Assembly (NCBI GenBank): GCA_963761645.1
Contig: CAVXIG010000067.1
Coordinates: 118,760-182,759 of the forward strand
DNA from: an uncultured Acidobacteriota bacterium
GTDB lineage: Bacteria > Acidobacteriota > Thermoanaerobaculia > Multivoradales > UBA5704
Length of the DNA: 64,000 bases
Reading direction: 5' to 3'
Shown: piece by piece, positions 9,296 to 64,000 of the stretch
How positions within the stretch are numbered: position 1 is the stretch's first letter
Layout: every line of letters begins with the position of its first letter
Translations under genes and position numbers: made by a program
The notes under the pieces: model-generated
The model's input: only the letters and a program-made list of their open reading frames with translations
Told to the model about the DNA's origin: nothing
Databases searched by the model: none

Positions 9296-10452
9296 TGGCG
9301 AGACTCGGACTGGTCGCCACCTGCGTTCTCGGTCTCGAGGAGATCCTCGAAGGGGAGCTGCGCGGCATGGGAGCGCGGGAGATCGAGCGCCAGCGGGGCG
9401 CCGTCTCGTTCAGCGGCGACTGGCGGGACTGCTGGCGCGCCAACTGGCGGCTGCGCACGGCGAACCGGGTGCTCGTCGAGCTCGCCTCCTGGGACGCGCA
9501 GGACGGACCCGGCATCGCCGCCGGCGCGCGCGCCCTGATCTCCGGCCGCCCCGGCCCGCGGCTCTGGCGGGGGGGCCTCGACGCCGCCGCCCTCTTCCAC
9601 CCCGACCGCACCTTCTTCATCCAGGCCACCTCGACCGCCTCCGAGGTGCGCGACACCCGCTGGGCCGCGATGTCGCTCAAGGACGGCCTGGTGGACGGCC
9701 AGCGCGACCGCTGGGGCCGGCGCTCGGACGTCGACCGCGAGGACCCGGATCTCCACCTGCGCCTGCGCCTCCACCGCGACCGCGCGACCCTCCTCCTCGA
9801 CACCTCGGGCGAGCCGCTCGACCGCCGCGGCTACCGCGCCGTCACCGCCGCCGCGCCGGTGCGCGAGCAGCTCGCCGCCGCCTGCGTGCTCGCCTCGGGG
9901 TGGGACGGCCGGGGGCCGGTGGTCGATCCGATGTGCGGCTCGGGGACGCTGCTGATCGAGGCCGCCTGGTTCGCCCTCGGCTGGGCGCCCGGCCGCCTGC
10001 GCCCCCACTGGGCTTTCGAGCGCCTGCCGGGCTACGACGCGGAGGCCTTCACCGCCGTGCTCCAGGAGCCGATCCTCGCCGCCGGCCCCGACGTCCGCGT
10101 CCACGGCAACGACCTCTCCGCCGAGGCGCTCGACGCCGCGCGGGCCAACCTGGAGCAGGCCAACCTGCTCGACCGCGCCACCCTCACCCGCGGCGACGCC
10201 GCCGCCTTCCAGCCGCCGCCCGGGCCCGGCCTGGTGCTGATCAACCCGCCCCACGGCGAGCGCCTGGAGACCGACGCCGGCCGCTGGCGCGCCGTCGGCG
10301 ATCTCCTCAAGCAGCAGTTCAAGGGGTGGAAGGCCGCCATCCTGACCGGCGAGGACCGCGGCAAGCAGATCGGCCTCCGCCCCCGCCGCCGCATCCCGGT
10401 GATGAACGGCCCGACCGAGGGGCGGATCCTGGTCTGTTTCGATCTGTACTGA
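9295..10452 (+). CDS. THUMP-domain class I SAM-dependent RNA methyltransferase (RlmL/RlmK N-domain-like)
   Basis: Intact 385-aa ORF with a THUMP-like N-terminal region and methyltransferase motifs (VVDPMCGSGTLLIEAA, LVLINPPHGERL). Its ATG overlaps the upstream stop (TGATGG). Confidence 0.8.
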   Translation: MARLGLVATCVLGLEEILEGELRGMGAREIERQRGAVSFSGDWRDCWRANWRLRTANRVLVELASWDAQDGPGIAAGARALISGRPGPRLWRGGLDAAALFHPDRTFFIQATSTASEVRDTRWAAMSLKDGLVDGQRDRWGRRSDVDREDPDLHLRLRLHRDRATLLLDTSGEPLDRRGYRAVTAAAPVREQLAAACVLASGWDGRGPVVDPMCGSGTLLIEAAWFALGWAPGRLRPHWAFERLPGYDAEAFTAVLQEPILAAGPDVRVHGNDLSAEALDAARANLEQANLLDRATLTRGDAAAFQPPPGPGLVLINPPHGERLETDAGRWRAVGDLLKQQFKGWKAAILTGEDRGKQIGLRPRRRIPVMNGPTEGRILVCFDLY

Positions 10453-13229: not shown

Positions 13230-13390
13230 CTCAATGTCTCCGGGTCAATGTCTCCGGGTAACAATTCGGTTGTACGGCTCGCCGATTCTATACCGCCCTT
13301 CCGCGGCCGGACGGCACGCCGCGACATGCTAGAATCCCATCGACCCCGCCGGCCCGAACCGGGAGTCCCCTCGCGCCCCCTGGAGAAGCG

Positions 13391-16300
13391 ATGCCTGTCA
13401 AGTTCCACCCCCGCCGCAGCTTCGCCCTGAAGTCGATGTTCCTGCTCGCCCCGCTGGCGCTGGCGAGCCTGCCGCTGTTTTATCCGCCGGCGCCGGCACG
13501 GGCTCGGCCGCGCCCTGGGAAGGCGCGGCGTTCGCCGGCGATCCCGCCGCGGTGGCCCGCGCCGCCGCCAGGATCCAGGGCGAAGAGGGGGACGACGTCG
13601 TGGTGCTCCTGATGGAGGCGAGCTACAGCTTCGACGAGGCCGGGCGCGAGACCTACAGCCAGCGGCTGGTCTACCGCATCCTCACCGCCGGCGCCCACGA
13701 GAGCTGGTCGACGGTCGAGGAGGGGTGGGAGCCGTGGCACCAGGCGCGGCCGGAGATCCGCGCCCGCGTCATCACGCCGGACGGCGCCGAGCACCTGCTC
13801 GATCCCGCGACCATCGCCGAGAACAGCGCCACCCGGGACGCCGCCGACATGTTCGAGGACGGCCGGGTGCTGCGCGCCCCGCTCCCCGCCACCCGGGCCG
13901 GCGCCGTCGTCGAGCAGCAGGTGACGGTGCGCGACACCGCGCCGTTCTTCGACGGCGGCGTGGTGCGGCTGCACAGCCTCGATCCCGGGATGCCCCTGCT
14001 CCACGCCCGGCTGACGCTCGAGGCGCCGGCCGCGATGCCGCTGCGCTGGGTCGCCCGCGAGCTGCCCGGGGTCTCCCCGCGGGAGGAGATGGTGGCCGGG
14101 CGCCGCCGGCTGACCTTCGAGGCCCGCGACCTCGACCCGGCGGACGATCCCGAGCCGGGGCTGCCGGCGGAGACGCCGCGCTCGGCCTACGTGGCCTTCT
14201 CGACCGGCCGCTCGTGGGCCGACCTGGCGCGCCGCTACTCGGAGATCGTCGACCGCTCGATCCGCGGCGCCGACATCGCGCCCTTCCTGCGCGCGGCGTC
14301 GGCGGGAGCCCCGCCGGCCTCGCAGCTCGAGACCATCAACCGCATCCTCGCCCGGATGAGCGACGAGGTCCGCTACACCGGCATGGAGCTCGGCGAGGGC
14401 GGGCTGATCCCCCGCACCCCGGCCGAGACGCTGAAGCGCCGGTTCGGCGACTGCAAGGACAAGGCGGTGCTGCTGACCGCCCTGCTGCGCGCCGCGGACA
14501 TCCCCGCCTACGTGGCCCTGCTCAACGCCGACGAGAGCGATCAGGACGTCGAGGAGTCGCTCCCCGGCTTCGGCCTGTTCAACCACGCGATCGTCGTGGT
14601 GCCCGGCGCGCCGGCGATCTGGATCGATCCCACCGATCCGTACGCGCGGGCCGGCGAGCTGCCGGTCGCCGACCAGGGGCGGCGCGCCCTCGTCGCCAGC
14701 CCCACCGCCACCGGCCTGGTCCGCACCCCCGAGGCCACCGCGGCCGAGAACCGGCAGGTCGAGACCCGCGAGGTCTTCCTCGCCGACCTCGGCCCCTCGC
14801 GCATCGTCGAGACCAGCGAGTACCAGGGGGCGATCGAGCGCGACGTGCGGGCCTTGTATGGGCTGCAGGACGGCCAGACGGTGCGCCAGGCGCTCAAGGA
14901 ATACGCCACCACCGCCTATCTCGCCGAGGACCTCGTCGGGGTGAGCCACTCGAACGCCACCGACCTCTCGGCGCCGATGCGCCTGCGGGTCGAGGTGAAG
15001 AACGCCCGCCGCGGCTTCACCGACGAGCGCAACGCCGGGGTCGGGATCAGCCCGGCGTCGCTGCTCAACCGCCTCCCCGACGAGTTCTCGTCGGCGGCGA
15101 CGGCGAGGACGCGAGCCCCGAGCCCCGGCAGGCCGACTACGTCTTCAGCCGGCCGATGACGGTCGAGGTCCGCTACCGGATCGTGCCGCCGGCGGGCTAC
15201 GCGCCGCAGCCGCTGCCCGCCGCGCGGGTGCGCCGTCTCGGCCCCGCCACCCTGTCGGAGGAGTACGCCGCGGCCGACGGCAACGTCGTCACCGCCACCT
15301 TCCGGCTCGACACCGGCAAGCGCCGCATCTCCCCCAAGGAGTTCGAGGCCCTGCGCTCGGGCGTGCGCGAGGCGCAGCAGGACAAGGTCGCGCTGCTGCT
15401 CTTCGACCAGGTCGGCGAGGCCCACCTCAACGCCGGCCGGGTGCGCGAGGCGCTGGCGGAGTTCCAGCGCCTGGCGGCGGCGGAGCCCGCCAAGGCCCTC
15501 CCCCGCACCCGCATCGCCCGCGCCCTGCTCGCCGGCGGCATGGGCGAGGCCGCGCGCGAGGAGGCGCGGCGGGCCATCCGCCTCGAACCGAAGCTCGCCC
15601 CCGCCTGGCGCCAGCTCGGCTGGGTCCTGCAGCACGACGAGCTCGGCCGCCGCTTCGGCCCCGGCTTCGACCGCGCCGGCGCCCTCGCCGCCTACCGCAA
15701 GGCCCGGGAGCTCGATCCCAGGGACCCGGTCACCCGCGCCGATCTGGCCATCCTCCTCGAGCACGACGCCCGCGGCCTGCGCTACAGCCCGCGGGCCGAC
15801 CTCGGCGCGGCGATCGACGAGTACAAGGCGCTCAAGAAGGACCTCGCGGCGAAGACCGTCGACGACAGCCTGCTGATCGCCCTGGTGCGGGCGGGGCGCT
15901 TCGCCGAGGCCAAGGAGCTGGCGGCCCAGATGAAGGACTCGCAGACCGGCTCCGTCCTCTCGCTGGTCGCCACCGCGGCCACCGACGGCATCGACGCCGC
16001 GGTGCGCGAGGGGGAGCGCGCGTTCGGCGACGACACCGCCCGCGCCTCGGCCCTGCAGGCGGCGGCCCAGAACCTGACGCTGGCGCGCCGCTACCCCGAA
16101 GCCGCGGCCCTGATGGAGCGGGCCAGCCGCCAGTCCGACAACGCCGCCGCCCTGCTCTCGATGGCCGACGCCCTGCGCCGGGCGCGGCGGCACGAGGAGA
16201 TCGTGCTGCCGGCGAACCAGCCGGCGACCCCGGCCCGCCGGCTGATGGCGATGACCACCGGCGAGAGGCTCGACTTCAAGGAGCTGGCCTCCCTCTTCTC

Positions 16301-17730: not shown

Positions 17731-19216
17731 ATGACCGGGGCCGCTCCGGCGGACGTCCCCGCGGGGTGGACCGCCAGGGCGAGCCGGCTGCTCACCGCGC
17801 TGTTCGTGATCGTCGTCCTCGAAGCCCTCTACACCGTTCCCAAGTACACCTGGGACCTCGCCGTCGGCGGCCGCTCAGGGGTCGGAATCCTGCTGGCCTT
17901 GAGCGTCGCCGGCGCGGCGGCAGCCCTCCTCTGGGCCGCGCGGCACCGGCTGGCGGCCCGGCTCCAGTCGGTGGGCGAACGGCTGGCGGCCGTCCCCCGC
18001 TGGCGCTGGCTCGCCCTGGTGATCGGAACCGGGCTCGTCCTGCGCGTCGCCTGGATGATCCTGTTCCCCGCCCCCCTGGCCTCGGACGGCCTCGCCTACT
18101 ACGACCTGGCCGCGCGGCTGGCGCACGGGCTCACCTATCAGACCCCCAAGGCCGAGTGGGCCGCGTGGCCGCCCGGCTACCCCTTCGTCCTGCTCGTCCA
18201 CTTCCGGCTCCTCGGCGTCGAGCCCCTGGGCGGTGAACGTCGCCAATCTCCTGCTCTTCGCCGGCGCGATGCTCGCCGTCTACGCCCTCGCCCGGCGCTT
18301 CGGCGAGGCGACCGCGCGCCTGGCGACGCTCCTGCTCGCCCTCTGGCCCAACCTGATCGCCTCGGCCGGCGTCGCGACCAAGGAGAGCGTGATCATCTTC
18401 CTGCTGCCGGTCCTGCTCCTGCTCTATCTGCGGGCCGGCGAGGAGCCTTCGCCGCGGGAAGGCGGCGGCGATGCGTTTCGTGGCGGGCATGGTGCTGGGG
18501 TACTGCACCCTGACCCAGCCGGGGATCCTGCTGTTCGCCGGGGTCTTCGCCGCCTACGAGTTGCTCCTCCGCGCGCCCGTCCTCCGCATCGCGGCGCGCC
18601 TCGCCCTGCTCGCCGCCGGCATGCTCGCCGTCATCCTCCCCTGGAGCGTCCGGAACTACCGCGTGCTCCACACGCCGGTGCTGGTCTCGACCCTCGGCGG
18701 CGACGTCTTCTACCGGGCCAACAACCCCCTGGCGACCGGCGGCTGGATCAAGGACGGCGAGCGCCCTTTGCGCGACTACGACGAGCTGACGCGAAGCCGC
18801 CTGGGCTACCAGTGGGGCAAGGAATGGATCCGCGAGAACCCGGACGAGTTCCTGCTCCTCGCGCTCCAGAAGCAGGTCCTCTTCCTGGGGGACGACGCCG
18901 TGGGCGTCTACGAGACCCTGAAGCGGGGGCTCGGCGTCGGCGGCAAGTCCTACGCCCTGGCGAAGCTCGGCGTCCAACGCCTACTGGTGGGGGATCTGGG
19001 CGCTGGTGCTCGCCGCCTTCTTCGTCCGCGCCGTCCACCTCCTGGCCGCGGCGCGCGGAGGTCGTGCTCTTCCTGCTGACCATCCTCTATTTCTGGGCGA
19101 TCGACAGCGTTTTCGAGAGCGGAGCCCGCCACCACACGCCGCTCGTGGGGCTGCTGGCGATCCTGGCGGCATCGCTGGCGGGGGCGGAGCCGCGGCGCGA
19201 GGTGACGCGCCTGTAA
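17731..19216 (+). CDS. integral-membrane glycosyltransferase, GT39/ArnT/PMT_2-like (frameshifted)
   Basis: ATG 17731 (MTGAAPADV...). Multi-TM with PMT_2/ArnT-like first-loop region (...ASDGLAYYDLAARLAHGLTYQTP...WPPGYPFVLL). Split across ORFs 17608..18513, 18233..19216 and 18471..19079. It ends at 19216. Confidence 0.55.
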
Positions 19217-20995: not shown

Positions 20996-23103
20996 GATCG
21001 CTCTACGACGCCCTCGCCCAGCTCCTCGCCACTCCCGAGGGCCTGCGCACCGCCCGTCTCCTCCAGGCGGCCGGCCTGCTCGGCGCGCCCGCCGCCCCGG
21101 CACCCCGTCCTATCCCACGATTCCCGGAGCCGATCAGCATCTGGCAGCCGCGGCGAGGAATCGACGGCGAGACCGTCTTCGTCCGTCCCGATCCCCTGCC
21201 GCTCGGGGATCACCATGCGGCCACGCCGGTCCTCCGGCCCAAGAAGTCGCTGCTTCCGCTCCGCGTCGCCTTCTTCGGCGAGTCGGTCGCGGCGGGCTAT
21301 CTCTACGCTCCCCACCTGACGCCCGCCCAGGTGCTCGAAGCCCAGCTCCGGGCCGCCGGCGGGGCGGAGCTGCTTCGAGGTGATCGATCTCGCCCGCACC
21401 AACGAGACCCTCCCCTCCCTCGCCGCGACCGTGCGCGCCTCGCTTCAGATCAACCCGGACGTGCTCGTCCTCTTCGCCGGCAACAACTGGAACCTGCTGG
21501 AGACGCCGGAGGTCTCCCCCTACGCCCCGTCCGTCGCGGCGCGGCAGCGTTACGGTCAGGCGCTGCGGGAGGAAGGGATCGCGGGGCCGATCGGGCTCGC
21601 CGCGGAGAGACTCCGGCAGGCGGCGGAAGCGGCGTTCGGCGACATCGCGGAGCTCGCCTGGGCGGTGCACATCCCGGTCGTCGTGGTGATTCCGGAGGTC
21701 AACCTCGCCGACTGGGAGACGCGCCAGCCGCCGGTCTGGCTGAGCGGGGACGGCACCGGCCGCTGGCACGCCCTCTACGCCGAAGCCGTCGAACGCCTCG
21801 ACCAGCACGACTTCGCGGGCGCGATCGAAGTCCGCCCAAAGCGATGCGGGAGCTCGACGGCGGCGACTGCTCCTCGACGTGGCGCCTCCTCGCCCGAGCC
21901 CACCTTGGTCTTGGCAATCTGGAGGACGCGCGGAACGCCTGTCTCGCCGAAGTCGACGCCGCCCGCTACGCCACCCTCGCCTTCTTGAGCGCCCCCCAGG
22001 CCACCACGGCGGCCCGCGAGCTGTCGCGGGATCTTGCCCGCCGGCACGGCTTCCTCGCCGTGGACCTCCGCGACGTCTTTTCCGAGCACACCGGATCGAG
22101 CCTGCCGGACCGCCGCCTCTTCCTCGATTACTGCCATCTGACCCTGGAGGGGATCCAGGTCGCCATGGCCGCCGTCGCGGCCCAGGTGCTGAATCTCTCG
22201 GGAATGCTCGACGAGGAGGCGGACTGGCGGCGCCTGATCTCCTCCTCGCCGCTCTCTCCCGAAGCCGAAGCCGTCGCCTGTTTCGGAGCCGCCATCCACA
22301 CCGCCCACCGCCTCCTGTCGACCGGCCCCAAGCGCCCTATCCTGGAGCACTGGTGCGAGGCCGCCCTCGACGCCTCGCCCGGCATCGCCGAGACGATGCT
22401 CGACCTCGTCGCCGCCCGCTGCGCCCCCTGCCCCGCCGTGCTGACCGCCGCCCAGCAGCGCAACCTCGCCTCCCCCTACCGCCTCCTCCTCCAGCACGGC
22501 TGGCGCTGGGACCACCTCGACGCCGATCTGATCGAGGCCATCCGCGCCGTCCTGGAGCGCCGCGGCCACCCGGCCGGAGAGCGGATCGACCGCCTCCTCC
22601 TGGAGCACCTCGCGATCCGCGAGGAAGGGACCGAGTTGCTCGACGCGATCTACCTCTGGGAACCGCTGGAGAGGTTTTATCCGGAGGTGATGGATTTCGA
22701 GGATCTGTCCCGCCGGGCGACCTTTCGCAGCCCCTGGCCGGAGTCCTCGTTCTGCCTGATCTGCGACGCGGAACGGGACGTGGAGATCGCAATGACCGTC
22801 CGGCTCTCCGCGCCCGGACGGGTAGGGCTCGCCGTCAATGATCGGGATCTCGGAACCGTGGACGCGGGAGAACGCTGGACGCGGGCGGTGCTGCGGATCG
22901 AGCGGGAAAGTCTGTACCGCGGCCTGAATCGCCTTACCTTGCGCTGGCCGCCGCCGCCGGACGGCGAGGCCGCACTCGCCGCTGCCGCGGAACGCCTCGA
23001 AATTGGGGTCGCGGCGGACCTGCACCCGGTGTTCGGAGAGATTTTTTCGTTGCGCTCGACTCCATCCACATTCCGGGGAAGGGCCGGAACGTTTCACTGC
23101 TAG
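20992..23103 (+). CDS. hypothetical protein with SGNH/GDSL-hydrolase-like N-terminal region and large C-terminal domain (frameshifted)
   Basis: ATG 20992 ([10 protein letters not shown]...) is coupled to the carbamoyltransferase stop (ATGA). Contains ...LRVAFFGESVAAGYLY..., then the 21380..21988 frame (...DVLVLFAGNNWNLL...), then the 19006..23103 frame to stop 23103. No confident functional assignment. Confidence 0.5.
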   Translation: MRSLYDALAQLLATPEGLRTARLLQAAGLLGAPAAPAPRPIPRFPEPISIWQPRRGIDGETVFVRPDPLPLGDHHAATPVLRPKKSLLPLRVAFFGESVAAGYLYAPHLTPAQVLEAQLRAAGGAELLRGDRSRPHQRDPPLPRRDRARLASDQPGRARPLRRQQLEPAGDAGGLPLRPVRRGAAALRSGAAGGRDRGADRARRGETPAGGGSGVRRHRGARLGGAHPGRRGDSGGQPRRLGDAPAAGLAERGRHRPLARPLRRSRRTPRPARLRGRDRSPPKAMRELDGGDCSSTWRLLARAHLGLGNLEDARNACLAEVDAARYATLAFLSAPQATTAARELSRDLARRHGFLAVDLRDVFSEHTGSSLPDRRLFLDYCHLTLEGIQVAMAAVAAQVLNLSGMLDEEADWRRLISSSPLSPEAEAVACFGAAIHTAHRLLSTGPKRPILEHWCEAALDASPGIAETMLDLVAARCAPCPAVLTAAQQRNLASPYRLLLQHGWRWDHLDADLIEAIRAVLERRGHPAGERIDRLLLEHLAIREEGTELLDAIYLWEPLERFYPEVMDFEDLSRRATFRSPWPESSFCLICDAERDVEIAMTVRLSAPGRVGLAVNDRDLGTVDAGERWTRAVLRIERESLYRGLNRLTLRWPPPPDGEAALAAAAERLEIGVAADLHPVFGEIFSLRSTPSTFRGRAGTFHC

Positions 23104-23340
23104 GTCGAGAGGCAATTTTGCTGTTCGCCGGCCTTGTTTTCGATCCCTCCCGAGTTATTTTGAAGTCCGCCCGGGTTTCCGCGCTCCTCCGCTACGTCTC
23201 CGCGTTCCCCAAAACCTTGACGCGCTTCCCCGCGATGTCGCCGCGCTCCGCCGCAACATTGCGGAGCTCTGCCGCAACGTTGCGGAGCTCTTCTGGAACG
23301 CGGGCGGGAACCTCGGCAGGCTTGCGGCGGATGCCCGGGC

Positions 23341-25233
<1,893 letters not shown>

Positions 25234-54646: not shown

Positions 54647-55669
54647 CTACTGCCGTTGTGTCACCCGCGCTTCCCGCTCGGCCCGCGCGGCGTCCAGATC
54701 CAGGCGCTTGGCGGTCTCGAGGAGCTGCGGCCTTTCGAAGGAGGTCTCGCGCATCTGCCCCATGCGGTAGGCGCGGGTGGTGTAGGCGTTCTCCACCAGG
54801 TCGTTGAGGGCGTTCGGCATGCGGGTGGTGGTCGAGAGGGCCAGGGTACCCAGACGGTAGGGACCCGCGGCCTGGCGCTCGTGGAACATCAGCCCGTAGA
54901 AGGAGAGCTCGAGCCAGTGGCGGCCGGGCTCCAGGTTGGCCGCTGCCTGCGCGAAGCCGATCGGCTCCCCCGCCGGCGTGTAGAGCGTGCCGCCGAGATG
55001 GAAACGGCCGGTCTCGGCGACCTCGATCTCGGCGGAGATCACGAGATTGCCGTCGCGCAGGGTGTCGCGGTAGCGGCCGGTCAGGTGCGCGGACGGATCG
55101 CTGTAGAGGAAGCCGCCGGCGGCCTCGCGCAGGTCGCCGTTGGCGAGCCGCGCCCGCACGCGCACCATGTAGCTCGCCGCCGGAGCCGCCTCGATCCCGG
55201 TGGGCGTCCAGCGGGCCGAATAGATGCCGTCGCCCGCCTTGCGGTCGGCCCCCTGGCCGTCGTCCCGGTACGCAACCAGGGCGTTGATGCTGCCGGCGGC
55301 GTCCACGATCTCGCCGGTGACCTGAGCGGCGGCGACCGCTTTGCCGCGGCTCTCCAGCGTGGCGTAGAGATCCACCGGCTGCCCCTTCTCGAAGCTCACC
55401 TTGGCGGCCCAGACGGAGATCGCGGGCTCGGCGTCGTCCGGCCCGCGCCGCGTCTGCCGGGTCGGGATCCGTTTCGCCTGGATGGGATCCGCCTCCCCCT
55501 TCTTGAGGGCGCGGGAGCTCTCCGGGTAGCGCGCCTGCTCCCGGTACTCTTTCGCCGTCTCGCGGGCCAGTTGGCCGGCCTCCACCTGCGCCGCGGCGGG
55601 CCGGCCGCCGAGCGCCGGAGCCGCGAGCATCACCATCGCGATGGCAACCTTTTTCTTCGCGTCGATCAT
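54647..55669 (-). CDS. hypothetical membrane-anchored/secreted protein, operon partner of lipase-like hydrolase
   Basis: Intact 340-aa ORF MIDAKKKVAIAMVMLAAPALGG... Its ATG lies 10 nt after the stop of 55680..56690. No known domain recognised. Confidence 0.6.
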   Translation of the reverse strand: MIDAKKKVAIAMVMLAAPALGGRPAAAQVEAGQLARETAKEYREQARYPESSRALKKGEADPIQAKRIPTRQTRRGPDDAEPAISVWAAKVSFEKGQPVDLYATLESRGKAVAAAQVTGEIVDAAGSINALVAYRDDGQGADRKAGDGIYSARWTPTGIEAAPAASYMVRVRARLANGDLREAAGGFLYSDPSAHLTGRYRDTLRDGNLVISAEIEVAETGRFHLGGTLYTPAGEPIGFAQAAANLEPGRHWLELSFYGLMFHERQAAGPYRLGTLALSTTTRMPNALNDLVENAYTTRAYRMGQMRETSFERPQLLETAKRLDLDAARAEREARVTQRQ

Positions 55670-56776: not shown

Positions 56777-57328
56777 TTATGAAGGTGAAGAAAGGTGCGG
56801 GAGGGGTGGTGTAGAGTTTTTTTTTTTTTTTTTTTTGTTATAAGAAAATGCGATCCCGGTGGGCGTCCAGCGGGCCGAGTAGATGCCGTCGCCCGCCTTG
56901 CGGTCGGCCCCCTGGCCGTCGTCCCGGTACGCAACCAGGGCGTTGATGCTGCCGGCGGCGTCCACGATCTCGCCGGTGACCTGAGCGGCGGCGACCGCTT
57001 TGCCGCGGCTCTCCAGCGTGGCGTAGAGATCCACCGGCTGCCCCTTCTCGAAGCTCACCTTGGCGGCCCAGACGGAGATCGCGGGCTCGGCGTCGTCCGG
57101 CCCGCGCCGCGTCTGCCGGGTCGGGATCCGTTTCGCCTGGATGGGATCCGCCTCCCCCTTCTTGAGGGCGCGGGAGCTCTCCGGGTAGCGCGCCTGCTCC
57201 CGGTACTCTTTCGCCGTCTCGCGGGCCAGTTGGCCGGCCTCCACCTGCGCCGCGGCGGGCCGGCCGCCGAGCGCCGGAGCCGCGAGCATCACCATCGCGA
57301 TGGCAACCTTTTTCTTCGCGTCGATCAT
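56777..57328 (-). pseudogene. truncated duplicate of 54647..55669 (N-terminal 165 aa) reading through into poly-A (…NKKKKKKN…)
   Basis: ORF 56777..57328 is identical to the partner-protein N-terminus up to ...ARWTPTGI. It then diverges into the junction and homopolymer and terminates. Confidence 0.6.
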
Positions 57329-58441: not shown

Positions 58442-60367
58442 TTACTTGAACCGGCCGAAGAACAGGCCGCCGTGGAGGGCGGCGGCGTAGAGAATCCCGG
58501 GCTGGTTGCGAGCCGTGACCAGGAGCTTGGCCGCCCGTTTCGACCCTTCGAAGGGGCCGCCGATCGGCTTCAGGGTGGCGCCGCCGTCCCGGCTGCGCAG
58601 GACCCCCTGCTGGAAGGTGGCGATGTAGATCGTGTTCGGGTCGGTGGCGTCGACCGCCAGAGCCCCGTAGAAGTCCGGGTAGGGGGACCGCGCGTGGACG
58701 ACCTGCCAGCTCTCCCCGCTATCCCGGCTGCGCAGGATCTGGGTGGTCCGGTTGTCGACGATGTAGAGGGTGCGGAAATCGCTCGGCGCGACGGCGGCCA
58801 GGGAGGGGTCCCCCTTCAGCGTCTTCCAGGTGGCCCCGCCGTCGTTGCTCCTGGCGAGGAACTGGCCGAAGCTGCTCGTGCCGTTGGTCGCCAGCATCAG
58901 AGCGTAGAGATTGCGGGAGTTTCGCGGATCGACCCAGAGCTCGACCGTGCTGACGGCGTCGTCGTCATCGTCCGGCAGTTCGCACGGAATGACCCGCGTC
59001 CAGGTCCGGCCGTCGTTCGTGCTCCGGCTCAGGCCGCAGTCCCGGCCGGAGAGGAGGGTCCCGGGGGTGGGGACGGCGATCCGGTAGGTGGACGTGGCGT
59101 CGATCTGATCCCAGGCCTCCCCGCCGTCGCGGCTCTCCCACAGCCCAGCGCCGTTGGCCGCGTACAGACGGTCGGGATCGGCGGGATCGAAGGCGAGGTC
59201 GAACAGCCCGTCGCGGCCGAGCCCGCGGGCGAAAGGCTGCCAGGTGCGGCCGCCGTCGGTGCTGCGGAACGAACGGTCCCCGCGGGTGGCGAGGCCGACG
59301 TAGCTCGTGTCCGGCCGGCTCGGATGGATCTCGAACAGGGCGACCGGGCCGGCGCTCAAGCCCGGCTCGACGCCGATCCGCCAGCGCTCGCCGCCGTTGG
59401 CGCTCTTGGCGACCCCCCGCTCGTAGGTGCCGGCGTAGAGGACGCCCGGCCGGGAGGGGTCCGCGGCCAGCGAGAAGATCTCCAGGGTCTCGCCGAACGG
59501 GAGTGGCGGCAGGCCGCGGGCGAGCTGCCTCCAGGTGGCGCCGTCGTCCGTGCTCGCGAAGACCCCGTCCAACCCCGCCGCGTAGAGCTTCGACGGCGAG
59601 GTGGGATCGGCCAGGAAGGCTTCGTCGAGGGAAAGGCCGGCGGGGAGGCTCCCGGTCAGCCGCCAGTCGCGGGCGCCGTCGTCGCTGCGGAAGATTCCGT
59701 TCCCCGCTCTCATGTAGAGGATTCCACGGGCCAGGGAGAGATGGCCGTACAGGACCGGCTGGCCGCTCACCAAAGGACCCGTGAGGGACCAGTTCTTCCC
59801 AGAGTCGGTGCTCTTGTGGAGCCCCGATCCATCCGCGTAGTAGGCGGTCCCTGGCGAGCCCGGGTCCGCCACGATCGAGGTGATCGGGCCGTTGATGAAG
59901 GTCGCCGACCAGGTGCTCCCGCCGTCGGCGCTGCGCAGCAGCAGGGCGCCCGAGCCGGCCAGGAGGACGGACGGGTTTCCCGGGATCACGGCCAGCGACG
60001 TGACGTCGAGCGAGATCGCCGGCGGCGAGGTTACCTGCCAGGTTTTGCCGCCGTCCGTGCTGCGCGCGAGCTGGTCCCCTCCCACGTAGATCGCGGCGGG
60101 ATGAGAGGGATCGAGCGCCACGACCTCGAGGCGCCGGCCGAAGAGGCCCGTCCAGGTCTCGCCGCCGTCGGCGCTCCGGTAGAGGACGCCCGACGCCGCG
60201 TAGACCACCGAGGGATCGCGGGGATCGACCGCCAGGCCCTGCGGAGTGCCGCCCCCCGGGCCGAAAGGTGCCCAGCGGTTCCGCGGCGCCTGCGCGAAGG
60301 CCGCCGAGGCGAGAGCCAGAGAGATCAGGACGATCGATAAGGTCGCGGAAAGCTTCACTCGGTGCAT
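58442..60367 (-). CDS. secreted BNR/Asp-box repeat beta-propeller protein
   Basis: ATG 60367 gives an MHRVKLSATLSIVLISLALASAAFAQ signal peptide. There are more than 10 S-x-D-G-G-x-T-W (Asp-box) motifs, e.g. STDGGKTW, SADGGSTW, STDDGATW, STDGGRTW, SNDGGATW. Intact 641 aa. Confidence 0.8.
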   Translation of the reverse strand: MHRVKLSATLSIVLISLALASAAFAQAPRNRWAPFGPGGGTPQGLAVDPRDPSVVYAASGVLYRSADGGETWTGLFGRRLEVVALDPSHPAAIYVGGDQLARSTDGGKTWQVTSPPAISLDVTSLAVIPGNPSVLLAGSGALLLRSADGGSTWSATFINGPITSIVADPGSPGTAYYADGSGLHKSTDSGKNWSLTGPLVSGQPVLYGHLSLARGILYMRAGNGIFRSDDGARDWRLTGSLPAGLSLDEAFLADPTSPSKLYAAGLDGVFASTDDGATWRQLARGLPPLPFGETLEIFSLAADPSRPGVLYAGTYERGVAKSANGGERWRIGVEPGLSAGPVALFEIHPSRPDTSYVGLATRGDRSFRSTDGGRTWQPFARGLGRDGLFDLAFDPADPDRLYAANGAGLWESRDGGEAWDQIDATSTYRIAVPTPGTLLSGRDCGLSRSTNDGRTWTRVIPCELPDDDDDAVSTVELWVDPRNSRNLYALMLATNGTSSFGQFLARSNDGGATWKTLKGDPSLAAVAPSDFRTLYIVDNRTTQILRSRDSGESWQVVHARSPYPDFYGALAVDATDPNTIYIATFQQGVLRSRDGGATLKPIGGPFEGSKRAAKLLVTARNQPGILYAAALHGGLFFGRFK

Positions 60368-60548
60368 CGGAATCTCCTTACTCGAATCTTCCTTCGAACA
60401 ATCCACCCGTCGGCCGGGGCAGGCCGGCTTCGCTCCGTTTCCAGGTCTGGCCGCCGTCCGTCTTCCATGACCTACTATGCGCGCATGGTGAGGGAAAACC
60501 GGCAAGGCGAAACTTTTCGTGCCGCTGTATCATCCCACCCGCCGCCCC

Positions 60549-61647
60549 GATGAGCACTCCTCTCCCAACCAGCGTCGAGATCCAGGACGTCACCAAGCGG
60601 TTCGGCGGCGTGACCGCCGTCGACGGCGTGTCGCTCGCCATCGCCCGCGGCGAGTTCTTCGCCCTGCTGGGGCCGAGCGGCTGCGGCAAGACGACGCTGC
60701 TGCGGATGATCGCCGGCTTCGAGACGCCGAGCGCCGGGACGATCCGCATCCAGGATCAGGACGTGACGCGGATCCCCCCGCACCGGCGGCCGGTCAACAT
60801 GGTCTTCCAGCAGTACGCCCTGTTTCCTCACCTGACGGTCGAGGAGAACGTCGGCTTCGGCCTGCGCTATCGAGCGAAACGGGAGGCGCACGGAGCCAGG
60901 ATCGGCGAGGCGCTGGCGCTGGTGCGGCTGACCGGCCTGGAGAAGCGGCGGCCGGACCAGTTGAGCGGCGGCCAGCGGCAGCGGGTGGCGCTCGCCCGCG
61001 CCCTGGTGCTGAAGCCCGAGGTGCTGCTGCTCGACGAGCCGCTGGCGGCGCTCGATCCCAACCTGCGCCGCGAGGTGCAGGTGGAGCTCAAGGCGCTCCA
61101 GCGCGAGCTCGGGATCACCTTCGCCTTCGTCACCCACGACCGCGAGGAGGCGCTGGCGATGAGCGACCGCATCGCGGTGATGAACCAGGGGAAAGTCGAG
61201 CAGGTGGGGAGCCCCGCCGGGGTTTTCGAAGCCCCCGAGACCGAATTCGTGGCCCGCTTCCTCGGCGCCACCAACCTCTTCACCGCCGAGGTGCGGCGGA
61301 TGGAGGGCGGCGTCCTCCTCCTCCAGCTTCCGGACGGCACCGAGCTCGCGGTGTCCGCGGCGGGACCGCCGCGGCTGCGGCGCGAGCCGGTGCGTTTCGT
61401 GGTGCGGCCGGAGAAGCTCGTCCTGCGCGCCGTCCCCGCTCCCCCCGAGGTCTCGCTGGCGGTGACGGTCGAGGACCGCGTCTACCACGGCGCCAGCACC
61501 GAATGGATCGTCCGCGACCGCCGCGGCGAGCGCTTCACCGTCCTCTCCCAGAACGCCGGGCCGGCGGGAGAGGCGCTGCCGTTCTCGCCGGGCAGCCCGG
61601 CCTTCCTGGGCTGGGACCCGCGGCACAGCGTGGTGCTGCGGGAGTAG
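60549..61647 (+). CDS. ABC transporter ATP-binding protein (PotA/CysA-like importer ATPase with C-terminal TOBE-like domain), orphan
   Basis: Intact ORF MSTPLPTSVEIQDVTKRFGGVTAVDGVSLAIARGEFFALLGPSGCGKTTLLRMIAGF...[15 protein letters not shown]...LLLDEPLAALD...FVTHDREEA. There is no adjacent permease or binding-protein gene in the window. Confidence 0.85.
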
Positions 61648-61667
61648 GACGAAAAGAGGGAGGAGGG

Positions 61668-61690
61668 GCGGCAGACCCGCCCCTCGGAGT
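61668..61690. terminator. GC hairpin between convergent ABC-ATPase gene and small peptide gene
   Basis: gaggaggggcgg-cagac-ccgcccctcgg lies 20 nt after stop 61647 (+) and 9 nt after stop 61699 (-). Confidence 0.45.
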
Positions 61691-61698
61691 TCGAGCCC

Positions 61699-61878
61699 TT
61701 ATGCCTGAACCGGGCAACCTCTGGTGCAGGCGTCCGAATGTACGGGGTGGTACACCGTATCGTCGATCGGGACCGTGTACTGGTTGTAGGAGATGATGTC
61801 ACCGCCGGTCACATGGCGCAGATCCGACAGGGTTTCCTTCCGCAACGTCAACTTCTTGGCGTTTCCCAATTTCTTCAA
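61699..61878 (-). CDS. candidate RiPP/bacteriocin-type precursor peptide with Lys-rich KETL leader ending in a double-glycine (GG) site
   Basis: Not in the ORF track (59 codons, TTG start). Minus strand reads GAAGGAGG-tcagcc-TTG AAG AAA..., translating to MKKLGNAKKLTLRKETLSDLRHVTGG|DIISYNQYTVPIDDTVYHPVHSDACTRGCPVQA* with stop TAA at 61699-61701. Strong SD at 6-nt spacing. The leader resembles K-K-L-x-L-x-KETL-x-x-L...GG leaders of rSAM/PCAT-processed peptides. The core has CxxxC. Bounded by a hairpin terminator. Confidence 0.45.
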   Translation of the reverse strand: MKKLGNAKKLTLRKETLSDLRHVTGGDIISYNQYTVPIDDTVYHPVHSDACTRGCPVQA

Positions 61879-62028
61879 GGCTGACCTCCTTCTTTGCTTC
61901 TTCGCGCCACAGGCGCGGAGATATTTCAGCGTCTCGACCGCCGAAATGGAGCCCGAGACGCTCTCAAGGCGTGCTGACGCGAAGATTGGCGGGATCCCGG
62001 GGCAGAGGTTCCCCGATCAGGGAGAGGG

Positions 62029-62154
62029 GGTCTCCCCAGTGGGTACAGGGGTCTCCCCGGCGGGTACGGGCGTCCCCCCGATGGGGATAGGGGTCTCCCC
62101 GGTGGGTACGGGCGTCCCCCCGGCCGGTACAGGCGTCCCCCCGGCCGGCGTCGA
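62029..62154. repeat. 6 x 21-bp tandem repeat (consensus GSGTCYCCCCRGYGGGTACRG)
   Basis: Units: gggtctccccagtgggtacag / gggtctccccggcgggtacgg / gcgtccccccgatggggatag / gggtctccccggtgggtacgg / gcgtccccccggccggtacag / gcgtccccccggccggcgtcg. There are no spacers, so it is not a CRISPR. It lies 150-280 bp upstream of the peptide gene. Confidence 0.7.
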
Positions 62155-62451
62155 CAGAGCTCCGCGGCAGTTTCAACAGAGCTCCGCGGCTGGCAACGGA
62201 TCGAACGCTGCGGAGAAGCGCGGCGACGTTGCGGAGAAGCGCGGAAGCCCCGGCGAGCTTCAAAATAACTCGGGCGGAGAAGCAATCAAGTCCGGCGAAC
62301 AGCGAAATCGCCTCTCCGTCTTGCGGTAAAACGTCCTGAACCACCCCCGGAACGCGGACGGAACCGGGAAAAATCGCCGGCGGGGAGACCGGCAACCCGG
62401 GGTAGGGACCCGCCAAAACCGCGGCGGCAATCTCCGCAGGAGACCGCAATC

Positions 62452-62559: not shown

Positions 62560-64000
62560 ATGCGGCGCAGCCGTGGACCAGGATGGACAGCTCTGACCGC
62601 GCTCTTCGTTCTGGCGGTTGCCAGCGGGAGCGCGCAAGCGCCTCCGGCTCCAGTCCCCCTCTCTACCGGCACGGCTCTGGAGCGCGCCTTCGCCGCCGGC
62701 GAGACCCAGGTCTTCGATGCCGTCCTCACCGCCGGCAGGCTCTACTCGCTGACCGTCGAGCAGCGGGGGATCCACCTGGTCGTCGACGTGCGCGGACCGG
62801 AGGGCGGGAGCCTCGCCGCGGTCGACTCCCCCCTGGACCGCTGGGGGATCGAGACCGTCCTTCTCCGCCCGGCCTCCACCGGTTCCTACCGGCTCGAGGT
62901 GCGCGCCGCGACGAAGGGCGTCGGGCCGGGCCGCTGCGCGATCCGCCTGGAAGAGATACCGGAATCCGCCACTGCCGCCGGCCGGGAACAGGATCAACGC
63001 CCTGGCCGCGATGACGGAGGCGGGCAGTATCCTGCGCCGCGAGCCCACCGGCAGTCTCGACAAAGTTCGGGCCGCCTTGCAGAAGGCGCGCGGCCACTTC
63101 CAGGCCGCGGGCGATCCGCCGGGAGAGGCCGAGGCGGTCGCCGCCCTCGCCGCCGTCACTCATCGTCTGGGAAAACAGCGCCAGGCCGTCGATCTCTATC
63201 GCGAGGCGGTCTCCCGCTGGCGGGAGCTCGGCCGGCCCGAGCGCGAGATGCAGGCCGCTAACGATCTCGGGCTGACCCTCTGGGAAACGAGCGAGCTGCC
63301 CGCCGCCGACGAGGCTCTCGCCCGCGCCCTCGATCTCGCGCGCCGCCTCGGTCTGGCCTACCCCGAGGCCGACCTGCGCAACAACCAGTGCCTGGTGCTC
63401 CACGCCCGCGGCGGCGTGCGGCCGGCGCTCGCCTGCTACCGGGAGGCCCTGGCGCTCTACCATCAGCTCGGCGAGACGAAGGACGAGGCCACGGCGCTCA
63501 ACAACCTCGGCTTCGCCTACTTCGGCCTCGGCGAGCCGCAGCCGGCCGAGGAGAGCTACCGCCAGGCGCTGGCGATCCGCCGGGCGATCGGCGACCGGGG
63601 CGGCGAGGCCCAGACGCTCAACAACCTCGCCGTCCTCTACCGCGGCCTGGGCGAGATCGGCGAAGCGCTCAAGGCCTACGGCGAGGCCCGGGAGATCCTC
63701 GCCGCGCTGGACGACCGCCGGCAGGAGGCCTCCACCCTGAACAACCTGGGAGTCGCCTACAGCGCCATCGGCGAGGCGGAGCGGGCGCGGCTCTATCTGA
63801 CCCAGGCCCTGGCGATCCGCCGGACGGTCGAGGACCGCCGCGGCGAGATCGCGACCCTCAACAACCTCGGCTGGCTCGAGCGCAGAGGCGGCGCGGCCGG
63901 CAAGGCGATCCTCCTCCACCGCCAGGCCCTCGAGGTCGCCGTCGCGACCCATGACGCGCGCAACGAGGGGATCAGCCGCAGCTTGCTCGGAGAGGCTCTG
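62560..64000 (+). CDS. secreted TPR-repeat protein (partial at window end; one frameshift ~62990)
   Basis: MRRSRGPGWTALTALFVLAVASGSAQA signal peptide and N-domain (62560..63261). After a shift there are more than 8 TPR units with a recurring ...A.TLNNLG.(A/V)Y...GE...A...Y.(Q/E)AL.I signature (63388..63954 frame). The ORF is open at position 64000. Confidence 0.7.

What the first reader, a model, noticed from the sequence alone, without database searches (positions are those of the whole stretch)
61699..61878. Unannotated small ORF resembling a double-glycine-leader RiPP/bacteriocin precursor
A 59-codon minus-strand ORF missed by the ORF track (TTG start) has a near-consensus SD (GAAGGAGG, 6-nt spacer), a proper TAA stop and a downstream GC hairpin. 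Its product is MKKLGNAKKLTLRKETLSDLRHVTGG|DIISYNQYTVPIDDTVYHPVHSDACTRGCPVQA. The N-terminus has the K-K-L-x-L-x-KETL-x-x-L...(T)GG architecture typical of leader peptides cleaved at a double-glycine site by C39-peptidase ABC exporters. In several families these are substrates for radical-SAM maturases. The 33-aa core has a CxxxC pair, and the Tyr/His/Asp-rich content fits a modified peptide rather than an enzyme. No maturase or C39-ABC exporter is visible within the window, and the adjacent ABC ATPase lacks a peptidase domain. It is therefore either an orphan precursor processed in trans or the edge of a cluster lying beyond 64 kb. A 6x21-bp repeat array sits 150-280 bp upstream.
Basis: partly seen in the sequence, partly recalled or inferred. 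Interest (0 to 1): 0.7.

Follow-up and report, generated by a model that had tools for sequence, protein, structure and literature searches.

The report
Stand-alone lanthipeptide-like precursor peptide gene
A real, conserved 59-codon gene in a soil Acidobacteriota genome encodes what looks like the precursor of a secreted, probably ring-modified peptide, but the enzymes that would process it are not nearby in this or any related genome examined.

Summary
ORF 61699..61878 (-) has a TTG start, the SD GAAGGAGG with a 6-nt spacer, a TAA stop, a 9-bp GC hairpin downstream and a 21-bp repeat array upstream.

It is a real gene. About 75 distinct homologues of 45-79 aa exist, named Thermoanaerobaculia/Acidobacteriota where any name is given. 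dN/dS is 0.21-0.48, the start position is conserved, and a -10-like box, 5'UTR hairpin and SD recur.

- **Leader:** residues 1-26 fit the LxLxKx5L...GG leader described for Bacteroidetes class I lanthipeptides. NCBIfam NF038153 matches 100 of 106 relatives at E<=1, but this peptide scores 16.5 bits against a cut-off of 22.
- **Core:** it ends in a family-wide motif, NDTVY[HY]P-xx-[ST][DE]xC[ST]xGCP. 81% of core cysteines have Ser/Thr at -3, as thioether rings require.
- **Missing machinery:** no LanB/LanC, radical-SAM/SPASM enzyme or C39 exporter lies in the 64 kb. None lies within 10 kb in about 8 contexts of this family or 4 of a sister family.
- **Shared leader:** at least five other Cys-rich core families use the same leader, scattered in the same genomes.

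Best reading: an orphan precursor processed in trans, probably lanthipeptide-like. The chemistry is unproven. It is a new member of a known kind, of moderate interest.

The parts
61699..61878 (-). 59-codon precursor-peptide gene (TTG start, TAA stop): MKKLGNAKKLTLRKETLSDLRHVTGG|DIISYNQYTVPIDDTVYHPVHSDACTRGCPVQA
   Evidence: Homologues. dN/dS 0.21-0.48. The start position is shared by homologues with ATG, GTG or TTG starts.
61801..61878 (-). Leader, residues 1-26. L10-x-L12-x-K14-x5-L20 fits LxLxKx5L. V23 is at -4, L20 at -7 and D19 at -8. G25-G26 is the predicted cleavage site.
   Evidence: NF038153 matches residues 1-20, E 0.0072, 16.5 bits. 100 of 106 relatives hit it at E<=1. G25/G26, L20, T16 and K9 are at least 90% conserved, and L10 and E15 are invariant. 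Motif from PMC7268733.
61702..61800 (-). Predicted core, residues 27-59, net charge about -3. It holds the conserved block I38-D-D-T-V-Y-H-P45 and the C-terminal S49-D-A-C52-T53-R-G-C56-P.
   Evidence: Alignments A2, A3 and A7. T41 and P45 are invariant, and V42, Y43, G54 and C55 are at least 90% conserved in A7. 81% of 146 core Cys have S/T at -3.
61885..61892 (-). Shine-Dalgarno GAAGGAGG, 6 nt before the TTG start
   Evidence: AAGGAGG-type SD recurs in family members.
61899..61921 (-). Short G+C hairpin in the 5' UTR (GCGCC-tgt-GGCGC core)
   Evidence: Analogous hairpins sit at the same place upstream of most homologues. The function is inferred.
61923..61928 (-). -10-like hexamer TGAAAT, 44 nt before the start. 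The close relative L002 has TAAAAT.
   Evidence: A TAnAAT box lies 40-50 nt before the start in 11 of 13 upstream regions from different contexts. The window's TGAAAT (A-to-G at position 2) and L015 (67 nt) are the exceptions. Homology with L002 extends only to 61950. The promoter role is inferred, and the consensus scan did not call it.
61663..61685 (-). 9-bp G+C hairpin between the convergent peptide gene and the ABC ATPase gene. Likely a shared terminator with a weak U-tract.
   Evidence: -25.2 kcal/mol for 61 nt, z = -1.6. Not called by the consensus scan.
62006..62164 (.). 21-bp tandem array, 6-7 units each with a GGGGnnnCCCC palindrome. It is nearby, but no link to the gene was shown.
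   Evidence: No coding signal: G+C at the third codon position is 0.69-0.74 against at least 0.83 in genes. Absent from the syntenic L002.

Best explanation
This is an autonomous small gene of about 290 bp, with a promoter-like box, 5'UTR hairpin, strong SD, TTG start, ORF and hairpin. It makes a 59-aa precursor peptide of a family confined, as far as any source names it, to Acidobacteriota of the class Thermoanaerobaculia.

**Shown here.**
- The gene is conserved and under purifying selection.
- The first 26 residues are a Lys-rich, non-hydrophobic leader of the LxLxKx5L...V-x-G-G type. It is homologous at family level to the NCBIfam class I lanthipeptide leader model.
- The same leader heads at least five other Cys-rich core families scattered through the same genomes.
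- No processing gene lies nearby in any context examined.

**Inferred.**
- The leader docks the peptide to modification enzymes and to a Gly-Gly-specific protease/exporter encoded elsewhere, a one-machinery, many-dispersed-substrates arrangement.
- Cleavage after G26 releases a 33-aa anionic core.
- Ser49 and Thr53 are dehydrated and attacked by Cys52 and Cys56, giving two adjacent 4-residue (methyl)lanthionine rings, S-x-x-C then T-x-G-C. This resembles the nisin/gallidermin A/B motif SxxxCTP(G/S)C, but with ring A one residue shorter and the motif placed at the C-terminus.
- The invariant NDTVY[HY]P block is a recognition or activity determinant.
- The biological activity is unknown. The acidic core argues against a classic cationic pore-former.
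For: - **Real gene:** homologues, dN/dS 0.21-0.48 in 10 pairs, and recurring -10-like box, hairpin and SD.
- **Leader:** NF038153 hit on residues 1-20. 100 of 106 relatives hit it at E<=1, with a best E of 1.3e-8. 2 of 10 sampled relatives pass the curated cut-off. NCBI already names two relatives 'class I lanthipeptide', P0071 in this family and P0121 in the sister family.
- **Motif:** the LxLxKx5L plus GG description comes from PMC7268733.
- **Core:** 118 of 146 core Cys (81%) have S/T at -3 against an S/T background of 17.5%. This holds at three separate sites: TDFC, SDxC and TxGC. 40 of 75 cores carry the strict [ST]xxC[ST]xGC.
- **Shared leader:** other core families carry the same leader in the same loci. 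A leader-dominated profile finds 1103 clusters at E<=10.
- **No fold:** AlphaFold2 with a 48-sequence alignment gave pLDDT 58 and pTM 0.15.
- **Precedent:** unclustered lanthipeptide proteases are reported in PMC8960859 (abstract).
Against: - No LanB, LanC, LanM, C39 peptidase or any other maturase was found in the 64-kb window. None was found within 10 kb in about 12 further contexts, 352 kb in all.
- This peptide is below the NF038153 cut-off (16.5 against 22 bits).
- That model covers only a short leader type, which rSAM-modified peptides also use.
- A few family members have one Cys or none, so thioether rings cannot be the family's universal feature.
- The S/T-at-minus-3 statistic is inflated by shared ancestry.
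- Position -12 of the leader is Glu, not the hydrophobic residue of the classic GG-leader consensus.
- The window's -10-like box reads TGAAAT, lacking the usual A at position 2.
- There are no expression or mass-spectrometry data.
Confidence: 0.55

Rival explanations
1. It is an unmodified Gly-Gly-leader peptide, like a class II microcin or a pheromone. The leader only directs export and cleavage by a distant C39-type ABC exporter, and Cys52 and Cys56 form a disulfide in the periplasm or outside the cell.
For: It has a GG leader but no maturase anywhere nearby. The CxxxC pair could close a small disulfide loop. Single relatives give weak hits to the BlpC (E 1.3e-4) and ComC (E 0.015) pheromone models.
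Against: No exporter is nearby either. Ser/Thr at -3 of each Cys is strongly conserved at three separate sites, which a disulfide does not need. The best and most consistent model hit is a lanthipeptide leader. The core is acidic and non-amphipathic, unlike typical microcins or bacteriocins (read from the sequence).
Confidence: 0.2
2. It is a RiPP precursor of another class. The same leader type recruits a different trans-encoded enzyme, such as a radical-SAM/SPASM, MNIO or ATP-grasp enzyme. That enzyme acts on the invariant NDTVY[HY]P block or on the Cys residues.
For: The most conserved element, NDTVYxP, contains no Cys, and some members lack Cys altogether. LxLxK-type GG leaders also occur on rSAM targets: TIGR04149 hit 2 of 106 relatives with a best E of 0.0071.
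Against: The peptide itself gave no TIGR04149 hit. No SPASM, YcaO, ATP-grasp or DUF692 gene lies in any context. The only weak Radical_SAM hit (L015, 227 aa, below the Pfam cut-off) is 4 kb away beyond an amino-acid permease.
Confidence: 0.13
3. It is a small cytoplasmic protein, for example a regulatory or metal-binding one, whose N-terminus only resembles a leader. It is neither cleaved nor exported.
For: The family is stably syntenic within lineages and sits among housekeeping genes. Three contigs place it divergent from a PHB_acc_N-phasin operon. Others place it between a pseudouridine synthase and an inositol phosphatase. No export genes are nearby. His, Asp and Cys residues could bind a metal.
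Against: The leader is shared by several unrelated Cys-rich core families, which is the hallmark of a targeting or recognition module. A variable-length linker follows the GG. No fold is predicted. The leader is homologous to a RiPP leader model.
Confidence: 0.09
4. It is a chance open frame in G+C-rich DNA.
For: Short ORFs abound in this window.
Against: There are about 75 distinct homologous cores, down to roughly 40% identity to this peptide, with conserved start, GG and C-terminal motif. dN/dS is below 0.5. The SD and promoter-like box are conserved.
Confidence: 0.02

Closest known systems
Bacteroidetes-type class I lanthipeptide precursors (LxLxKx5L...GG leaders; NCBIfam NF038153 lant_leader_L1a; pinensin group)
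   Same: The leader motif fits exactly (L10xL12xK14x5L20) and ends in GG. The model hits nearly the whole family. The core has Ser/Thr placed N-terminal to Cys at ring-forming spacing.
   Different: In the described systems LanB, LanC and often a C39 protease are in the cluster (PMC7268733). Here none lies within the window or within 10 kb in any relative. This peptide is below the curated cut-off. The phylum is Acidobacteriota, not Bacteroidetes.
Prochlorosins (ProcA precursors processed by a single ProcM in marine cyanobacteria)
   Same: Many precursor genes are dispersed around the genome, share one conserved GG-ended leader and carry different cores. Processing is in trans. The description of prochlorosins rests on my own knowledge of the literature. 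The dispersed, shared leader here is shown.
   Different: Prochlorosins use a long Nif11-type leader and a class II LanM. Their cores are hypervariable, whereas this core family is conserved across genomes. No enzyme has been identified here.
Nisin/gallidermin lipid II-binding rings A/B (SxxxCTP(G/S)C)
   Same: The motif S49-D-A-C-T-R-G-C56 gives two back-to-back Ser/Thr-to-Cys units, the second being T-x-G-C as in nisin ring B (motif quoted in PMC7268733).
   Different: Ring A would be one residue shorter. Pro is replaced by a variable residue. The motif sits at the C-terminus of the core, not the N-terminus. No sequence model of the gallidermin/nisin family matched.
   Same: It has a short Lys-rich K-K-L-x-L-x-K-E-T-I/L leader ending in GG.
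   Different: The peptide gave no hit and only 2 of 106 relatives matched weakly. No radical-SAM/SPASM neighbour was found.
Thermoanaerobaculia tha/the lanthipeptide clusters (ThaA/TheA with LanM and a GMC oxidase; PMC13083261)
   Same: They come from the same bacterial class, have Cys-rich cores and show that lanthionine chemistry exists in these organisms.
   Different: TheA has an unrelated, longer leader (MKKIDVVRAWRDEEYRNSL...NPAG...SGG) and sits in a cluster with its enzymes.

Membership tests
Double-glycine (C39/PCAT-cleaved) leader peptides | Gly-Gly (or GA/GS) at -2/-1, directly followed by the core | tested here: met
   G25-G26 are each at least 90% conserved in 106 relatives, and a few have G-A.
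Double-glycine (C39/PCAT-cleaved) leader peptides | Hydrophobic residues at -4, -7, -12 and -15 and an acidic residue at -8 (classic LSxxELxxIxGG consensus, from my own knowledge) | tested here: inconclusive
   V at -4, L at -7, D at -8 and L at -15 fit. Position -12 is Glu, not hydrophobic (read and alignment A3).
Double-glycine (C39/PCAT-cleaved) leader peptides | No Sec-type hydrophobic signal; the leader is short and hydrophilic | tested here: met
   The 26-aa leader has 6 Lys/Arg in the first 14 residues and no hydrophobic stretch (from the sequence).
Double-glycine (C39/PCAT-cleaved) leader peptides | A C39-peptidase ABC exporter encoded with the peptide | tested here: not met
   There is no Peptidase_C39 in the window ORFs or in about 12 related contexts. 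No Q...CGxAxL motif occurs in 352 kb. The ABC exporter next to L020 is MsbA-like and lacks an N-terminal peptidase. The rest of the genome could not be searched.
Class I lanthipeptide precursors (NF038153 lant_leader_L1a type) | Score at or above the curated NCBIfam cut-off (22 bits) | tested here: not met
   The window peptide scores 16.5 bits, E 0.0072. Ten relatives score between no hit and 24.0 bits, and only P0071 and P0060 pass.
Class I lanthipeptide precursors (NF038153 lant_leader_L1a type) | LxLxKx5L leader motif ending in GG (PMC7268733) | tested here: met
   L10-T-L12-R-K14-ETLSD-L20 ... G25G26.
Class I lanthipeptide precursors (NF038153 lant_leader_L1a type) | Core with Ser/Thr N-terminal to Cys partners | tested here: met
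   S49xxC52 and T53xxC56. 81% of 146 core Cys in 75 distinct cores have S/T at -3.
Class I lanthipeptide precursors (NF038153 lant_leader_L1a type) | LanB dehydratase and LanC cyclase in the same cluster | tested here: not met
   No Lant_dehydr or LANC_like domain occurs in any scanned ORF of the window or in the precomputed Pfam lists of the related loci. Presence elsewhere in the genome is not testable with these tools.
Class I lanthipeptide precursors (NF038153 lant_leader_L1a type) | Dehydrated residues and thioether rings in the product | not testable with these tools
   This needs mass spectrometry or NMR of the matured peptide.
TIGR04149 GG_sam_targ_CFB (rSAM-modified RiPP) | Match to the family model | tested here: not met
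   The peptide gave no hit at E<=10. 2 of 106 relatives hit, with a best E of 0.0071.
TIGR04149 GG_sam_targ_CFB (rSAM-modified RiPP) | Adjacent radical-SAM/SPASM maturase | tested here: not met
   The only radical-SAM genes seen are ThiC at 23341-25221 and a weak, sub-threshold 227-aa hit 4 kb from the L015 homologue.

The most novel reading that the evidence does not exclude
The gene may be one element of a large, dispersed library of stand-alone precursor genes in Thermoanaerobaculia. At least six core families share one leader, and a leader-dominated profile finds more than 1,000 protein clusters. The library would be matured in trans by a single promiscuous enzyme set. That would be a prochlorosin-like combinatorial RiPP system in a soil phylum, built on a class I-type leader or on an as-yet-unknown maturase that recognises the NDTVYxP block.
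Probability: 0.25. Interest if true: 0.7.

Novelty: new member of a known kind. Interest (0 to 1): 0.45.

Why it matters
**What it adds.** Standard ORF calling with a 60-aa floor missed this gene, and this copy falls below the NCBI naming cut-off. It nevertheless belongs to a conserved, uncharacterised peptide family with no Pfam model and no NCBIfam model covering its core.

**Why the orphan arrangement matters.** The family, and several sister families with the same leader, always occur as orphans. If they are matured in trans, cluster-based genome miners such as antiSMASH or RODEO would systematically miss them. The RiPP potential of Acidobacteriota, a phylum now recognised as biosynthetically rich (PMC13083261), would then be underestimated.

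**A practical test.** The conserved S-x-x-C-T-x-G-C tail gives a concrete, testable structural prediction.

**If it is not matured in trans.** The result is an ordinary small secreted-peptide gene of unknown role.

Tried and rejected
- **tha/the clusters:** these are lanthipeptide clusters of Thermoanaerobaculia (PMC13083261). I read TheA's sequence from Supplementary Table 11. Its leader is of a different, longer type, so these enzymes are not implicated.
- **ABC exporter next to the sister peptide in L020:** a three-frame translation shows a frameshifted MsbA/MdlB-like exporter starting '...EEVLGKAYDARLMRRLLAYLRPY' with no C39 domain.
- **Weak Radical_SAM hit in L015:** 26.5 bits, below the cut-off of 29.5, 227 aa, no SPASM domain, and 4 kb away beyond a permease. 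Not taken as a maturase.
- **Subtilases:** one lies next to the sister peptide in L021/L022 and two lie 6-10 kb from the homologue in L002. NCBIfam gave only generic, far-sub-threshold subtilase hits and nothing LanP-specific.
- **Paralogues in the window:** a regex scan and a leader-HMM scan of all six frames found none.
- **Rfam:** nothing at 55-64 kb.
- **The 21-bp array as coding sequence:** rejected on third-position G+C.
- **PF28317:** it is precomputed for two sister-family proteins but is absent from the local Pfam copy, so its meaning stays unknown.
- **Collection scans:** the genome and metagenome scans returned only 1 and 7 loci.

Full report
**1. The observation.**

On the minus strand the sequence reads ...GAAGGAGG-tcagcc-TTG AAG AAA ... 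CAG GCA TAA.
- The ORF is 61699..61878 (-), 59 codons, and encodes (M)KKLGNAKKLTLRKETLSDLRHVTGGDIISYNQYTVPIDDTVYHPVHSDACTRGCPVQA.
- G+C by codon position is 0.50/0.40/0.77 in a window of 69.9% G+C.
- The gene converges on a PotA-like ABC ATPase at 60268..61647 (+), which is ABC_tran plus TOBE_2 with no peptidase domain.
- The 51-nt gap between them holds a 9-bp G+C hairpin at 61663-61685, followed by a weak U-tract. The consensus terminator scan did not call it.
- The 21-bp array is real, at 62006-62164.
- An ORF of this length is not significant on its own here. Everything below rests on comparison with other sequences.

**2. It is a real, conserved gene.**

- A word-indexed search of 5.8 billion proteins found five homologues at 98-54% identity.
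- An exhaustive HMMER scan of 1.84 billion cluster representatives found 32 clusters at E<=1e-3, nearly all 45-91 aa.
- A profile search found 89 proteins.
- Sources that name them say Thermoanaerobaculia. The only genome-collection hit is an uncultured Acidobacteriota MAG.
- The family consensus is MKKQxxxKKLTLxKETLxxLxxVxGG, then 1-15 variable residues, then [IL][ND]DTVY[HYR]PxxSDxC[TS]xGCPxxx.
- Nei-Gojobori dN/dS is 0.21-0.48 in ten pairs spanning dS 0.18-1.25.
- The start position is shared by homologues with ATG, GTG or TTG, and TTG occurs in 8 of 12.
- In 11 of 13 upstream regions from different genomic contexts a TAnAAT box lies 40-50 nt before the start. A short G+C hairpin and an AAGGAGG-type SD follow it. 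The window's box reads TGAAAT, where its close relative has TAAAAT.
- Homology between the window and the syntenic contig L002 runs from the ATPase through the peptide gene and stops at 61950, 72 nt upstream of the start.
- The unit therefore looks like a compact, self-contained gene of about 290 bp.

**3. The leader.**

- The only NCBIfam hit of the peptide is NF038153 lant_leader_L1a ('class I lanthipeptide'). It covers residues 1-20 with E 0.0072 and 16.5 bits, below the cut-off of 22. Pfam has nothing.
- At family level the link is firm. 100 of 106 relatives match NF038153 at E<=1, with a best E of 1.3e-8. 11 match the sibling model L1b, and only 2 match the rSAM-target model TIGR04149.
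- Ten sampled relatives score between no hit and 24.0 bits, and two pass the cut-off.
- NCBI already names P0071 (this family) and P0121 (sister family) 'class I lanthipeptide'.
- Walker et al. 2020 describe class I LanAs of Bacteroidetes with an LxLxKx5L leader that often ends in Gly-Gly, with a C39 protease in the cluster (PMC7268733). The peptide fits the motif exactly: L10-T-L12-R-K14-ETLSD-L20, then V23-T-G25-G26.
- Against the classic GG-leader consensus, positions -4 (V), -7 (L), -8 (D) and -15 (L) fit. Position -12 (E) does not.

**4. The core.**

- The region right after GG varies in length. The C-terminal 22 or so residues are the conserved part.
- In 75 distinct cores, 118 of 146 cysteines (81%) have Ser/Thr at -3, against an S/T background of 17.5%.
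- This holds at three different sites: an optional T-D-F-C, then S-D-x-C and T-x-G-C. 40 of 75 cores carry the strict [ST]xxC[ST]xGC.
- That is the arrangement needed for lanthionine rings, with the dehydrated residue N-terminal to its Cys. It resembles the nisin/gallidermin motif SxxxCTP(G/S)C quoted, though ring A would be one residue shorter and the motif sits at the C-terminus.
- The statistic is inflated by shared ancestry.
- A few members have one Cys or none while keeping NDTVYxP. Thioether rings therefore cannot be the whole story.
- The predicted 33-aa core has a net charge of about -3, unlike typical cationic bacteriocins.
- AlphaFold2 with 48 sequences predicts no fold: pLDDT 58, pTM 0.15.

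**5. Surroundings.**

- Pfam scans of about 40 ORFs across the 64 kb show no LanB/LanC, SPASM enzyme, YcaO, ATP-grasp or C39 peptidase. The only radical-SAM protein is ThiC.
- Related contexts fall into about eight types:
  - window, L002 and L013: ABC ATPase and BNR/sortilin genes;
  - L001, L004 and L006: divergent from a PHB_acc_N-phasin-patatin operon, next to ArsA-like ATPases;
  - L005 and L017-19: BrkB and isoamylase;
  - L007 and L010-12: pseudouridine synthase and inositol phosphatase, with a tandem paralogue in L007;
  - L008 and L009: ornithine cyclodeaminase and M20 peptidase;
  - L015, L014 and L016: one context each.
- None has a maturase or exporter within 10 kb.
- L002 shows what lies beyond the window's edge in a close relative: toxin-antitoxin modules, the permeases and binding protein of the same ABC importer, and two subtilases. 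This argues against the 'edge of a cluster' idea.

**6. One leader, many cores.**

- A leader HMM run over all six-frame ORFs of the fetched loci found further small ORFs with the same leader but unrelated Cys-rich cores. They lie a few kb from family members.
- Database searches extend these into families:
  - ...EPASGGPxICWFSDCNPCDTxxQC;
  - KNAPKLVIHRETL...SPCPSIIDDCPSWG...TDTCAC;
  - VSCSCGIPCSDVSVCW;
  - a doubled VDCSFIVTGC;
  - SLAPCHSGNPPCPFT.
- A leader-dominated profile retrieves 1103 clusters at E<=10.
- Four contexts of the ICWFSDCNPC family are also orphan.
- A shared leader on dispersed genes with different cores points to a common, trans-acting recognition and processing system. 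The known analogue is the prochlorosin system (my own knowledge). Unclustered lanthipeptide proteases are documented (PMC8960859).

**7. Verdict.**

- Best explanation (0.55): an orphan GG-leader RiPP precursor, probably lanthipeptide-like, processed in trans.
- Rivals: an unmodified exported peptide with a Cys52-Cys56 disulfide (0.20); another RiPP chemistry on the same leader (0.13); a cytoplasmic small protein (0.09); a chance ORF (0.02).
- It cannot be filed as a class I lanthipeptide. The curated score and the LanB/LanC neighbourhood were both tested and not met. It does look as if it works like one.
- Novelty: a new member of a known kind. The core family is uncharacterised and this copy is unannotated, but the leader type is already modelled and some relatives are already named.
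- Interest is moderate. The unusual point is the consistent orphan, dispersed organisation.

Noticed in passing
window 62006-62164 (also 62151-62190 and 62205-62244): There is a tandem array of 6-7 units of 21 bp, each holding a GGGGnnnCCCC palindrome. Two further two-copy tandem duplications of 22 and 21 nt lie beside it. None has a coding signal, and none is present in the syntenic relative L002. The 21-bp period, about two helical turns, would suit repeated protein-binding sites, but nothing links it to the peptide gene.
   Followed up: partly
window 62219-62350 (-) and window 23073-23204 (+); L002 8728-8856: A dispersed non-coding repeat of about 130 bp (GAGGCRATTTYGCTGTTCGCCGG...CCCGAGTTATTTTGAAG...) occurs twice in the window at 78% identity and once in L002 at 75%. 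Each copy continues into short 21-nt tandem repeats. It matches no Rfam family at 55-64 kb.
   Followed up: partly
L002/L013 7250-10780, compared with window 61512-61950: In the close relative, the PotA-like ATPase is separated from its permeases and binding protein by an island of about 3.6 kb. The island carries NTP_transf_2/HepT toxin-antitoxin modules and two leader-type peptide genes. The last 70-130 bp or so of the ATPase gene is present three times, which suggests repeated insertion at the 3' end of that gene.
   Followed up: partly
window 62560-64000 (+): Third-position G+C shows coding in the frame of ORF 62560.., whose N-terminus looks like a signal peptide, up to about 62930. It then switches to the frame of the TPR ORF 62753..64000. 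This indicates a frameshift, a pseudogene or a sequencing error in the divergent TPR-protein gene.
   Followed up: partly
L002 8197-8424 (-); L001 about 13380-13560 (+); L007 17404-17553 (-) and about 17790-17960 (+); proteins P0085-P0124: At least five other conserved families of 48-76-aa peptides carry the same KKLxLxKETLxxL...GG leader with different Cys-rich cores, for example ICWFSDCNPCDTxxQC. They are scattered through the same genomes and are equally orphan. Two members carry a precomputed PF28317 hit that the local Pfam copy does not contain.
   Followed up: partly
L021 10247-12802 (-) and L022; L002 1-4436: A large S8 subtilase lies convergent and about 90 bp from the sister-family peptide gene in L021/L022. 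Two S8 genes lie 6-10 kb from the homologue in L002. NCBIfam gives only generic subtilase similarity, so a leader-protease role is an untested guess.
   Followed up: partly
L001, L004, L006 around 9300-10000: In three contigs the family gene is divergent from a PHB_acc_N (PhaR-like)-phasin-phasin-patatin operon. The shared intergenic region holds conserved inverted repeats (ccgcaGTGCGGcaa / TTGACGCGGTGCGGCAAG). These may be regulator sites for the PHB operon rather than for the peptide gene.
   Followed up: no
window 55226-55266 and 56885-56925: The same 15-bp tandem repeat (GCCGTCGCCCCCCTG, 2.7 copies) occurs in two neighbouring minus-strand ORFs with no strong family assignment. This suggests paralogous low-complexity segments.
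   Followed up: no
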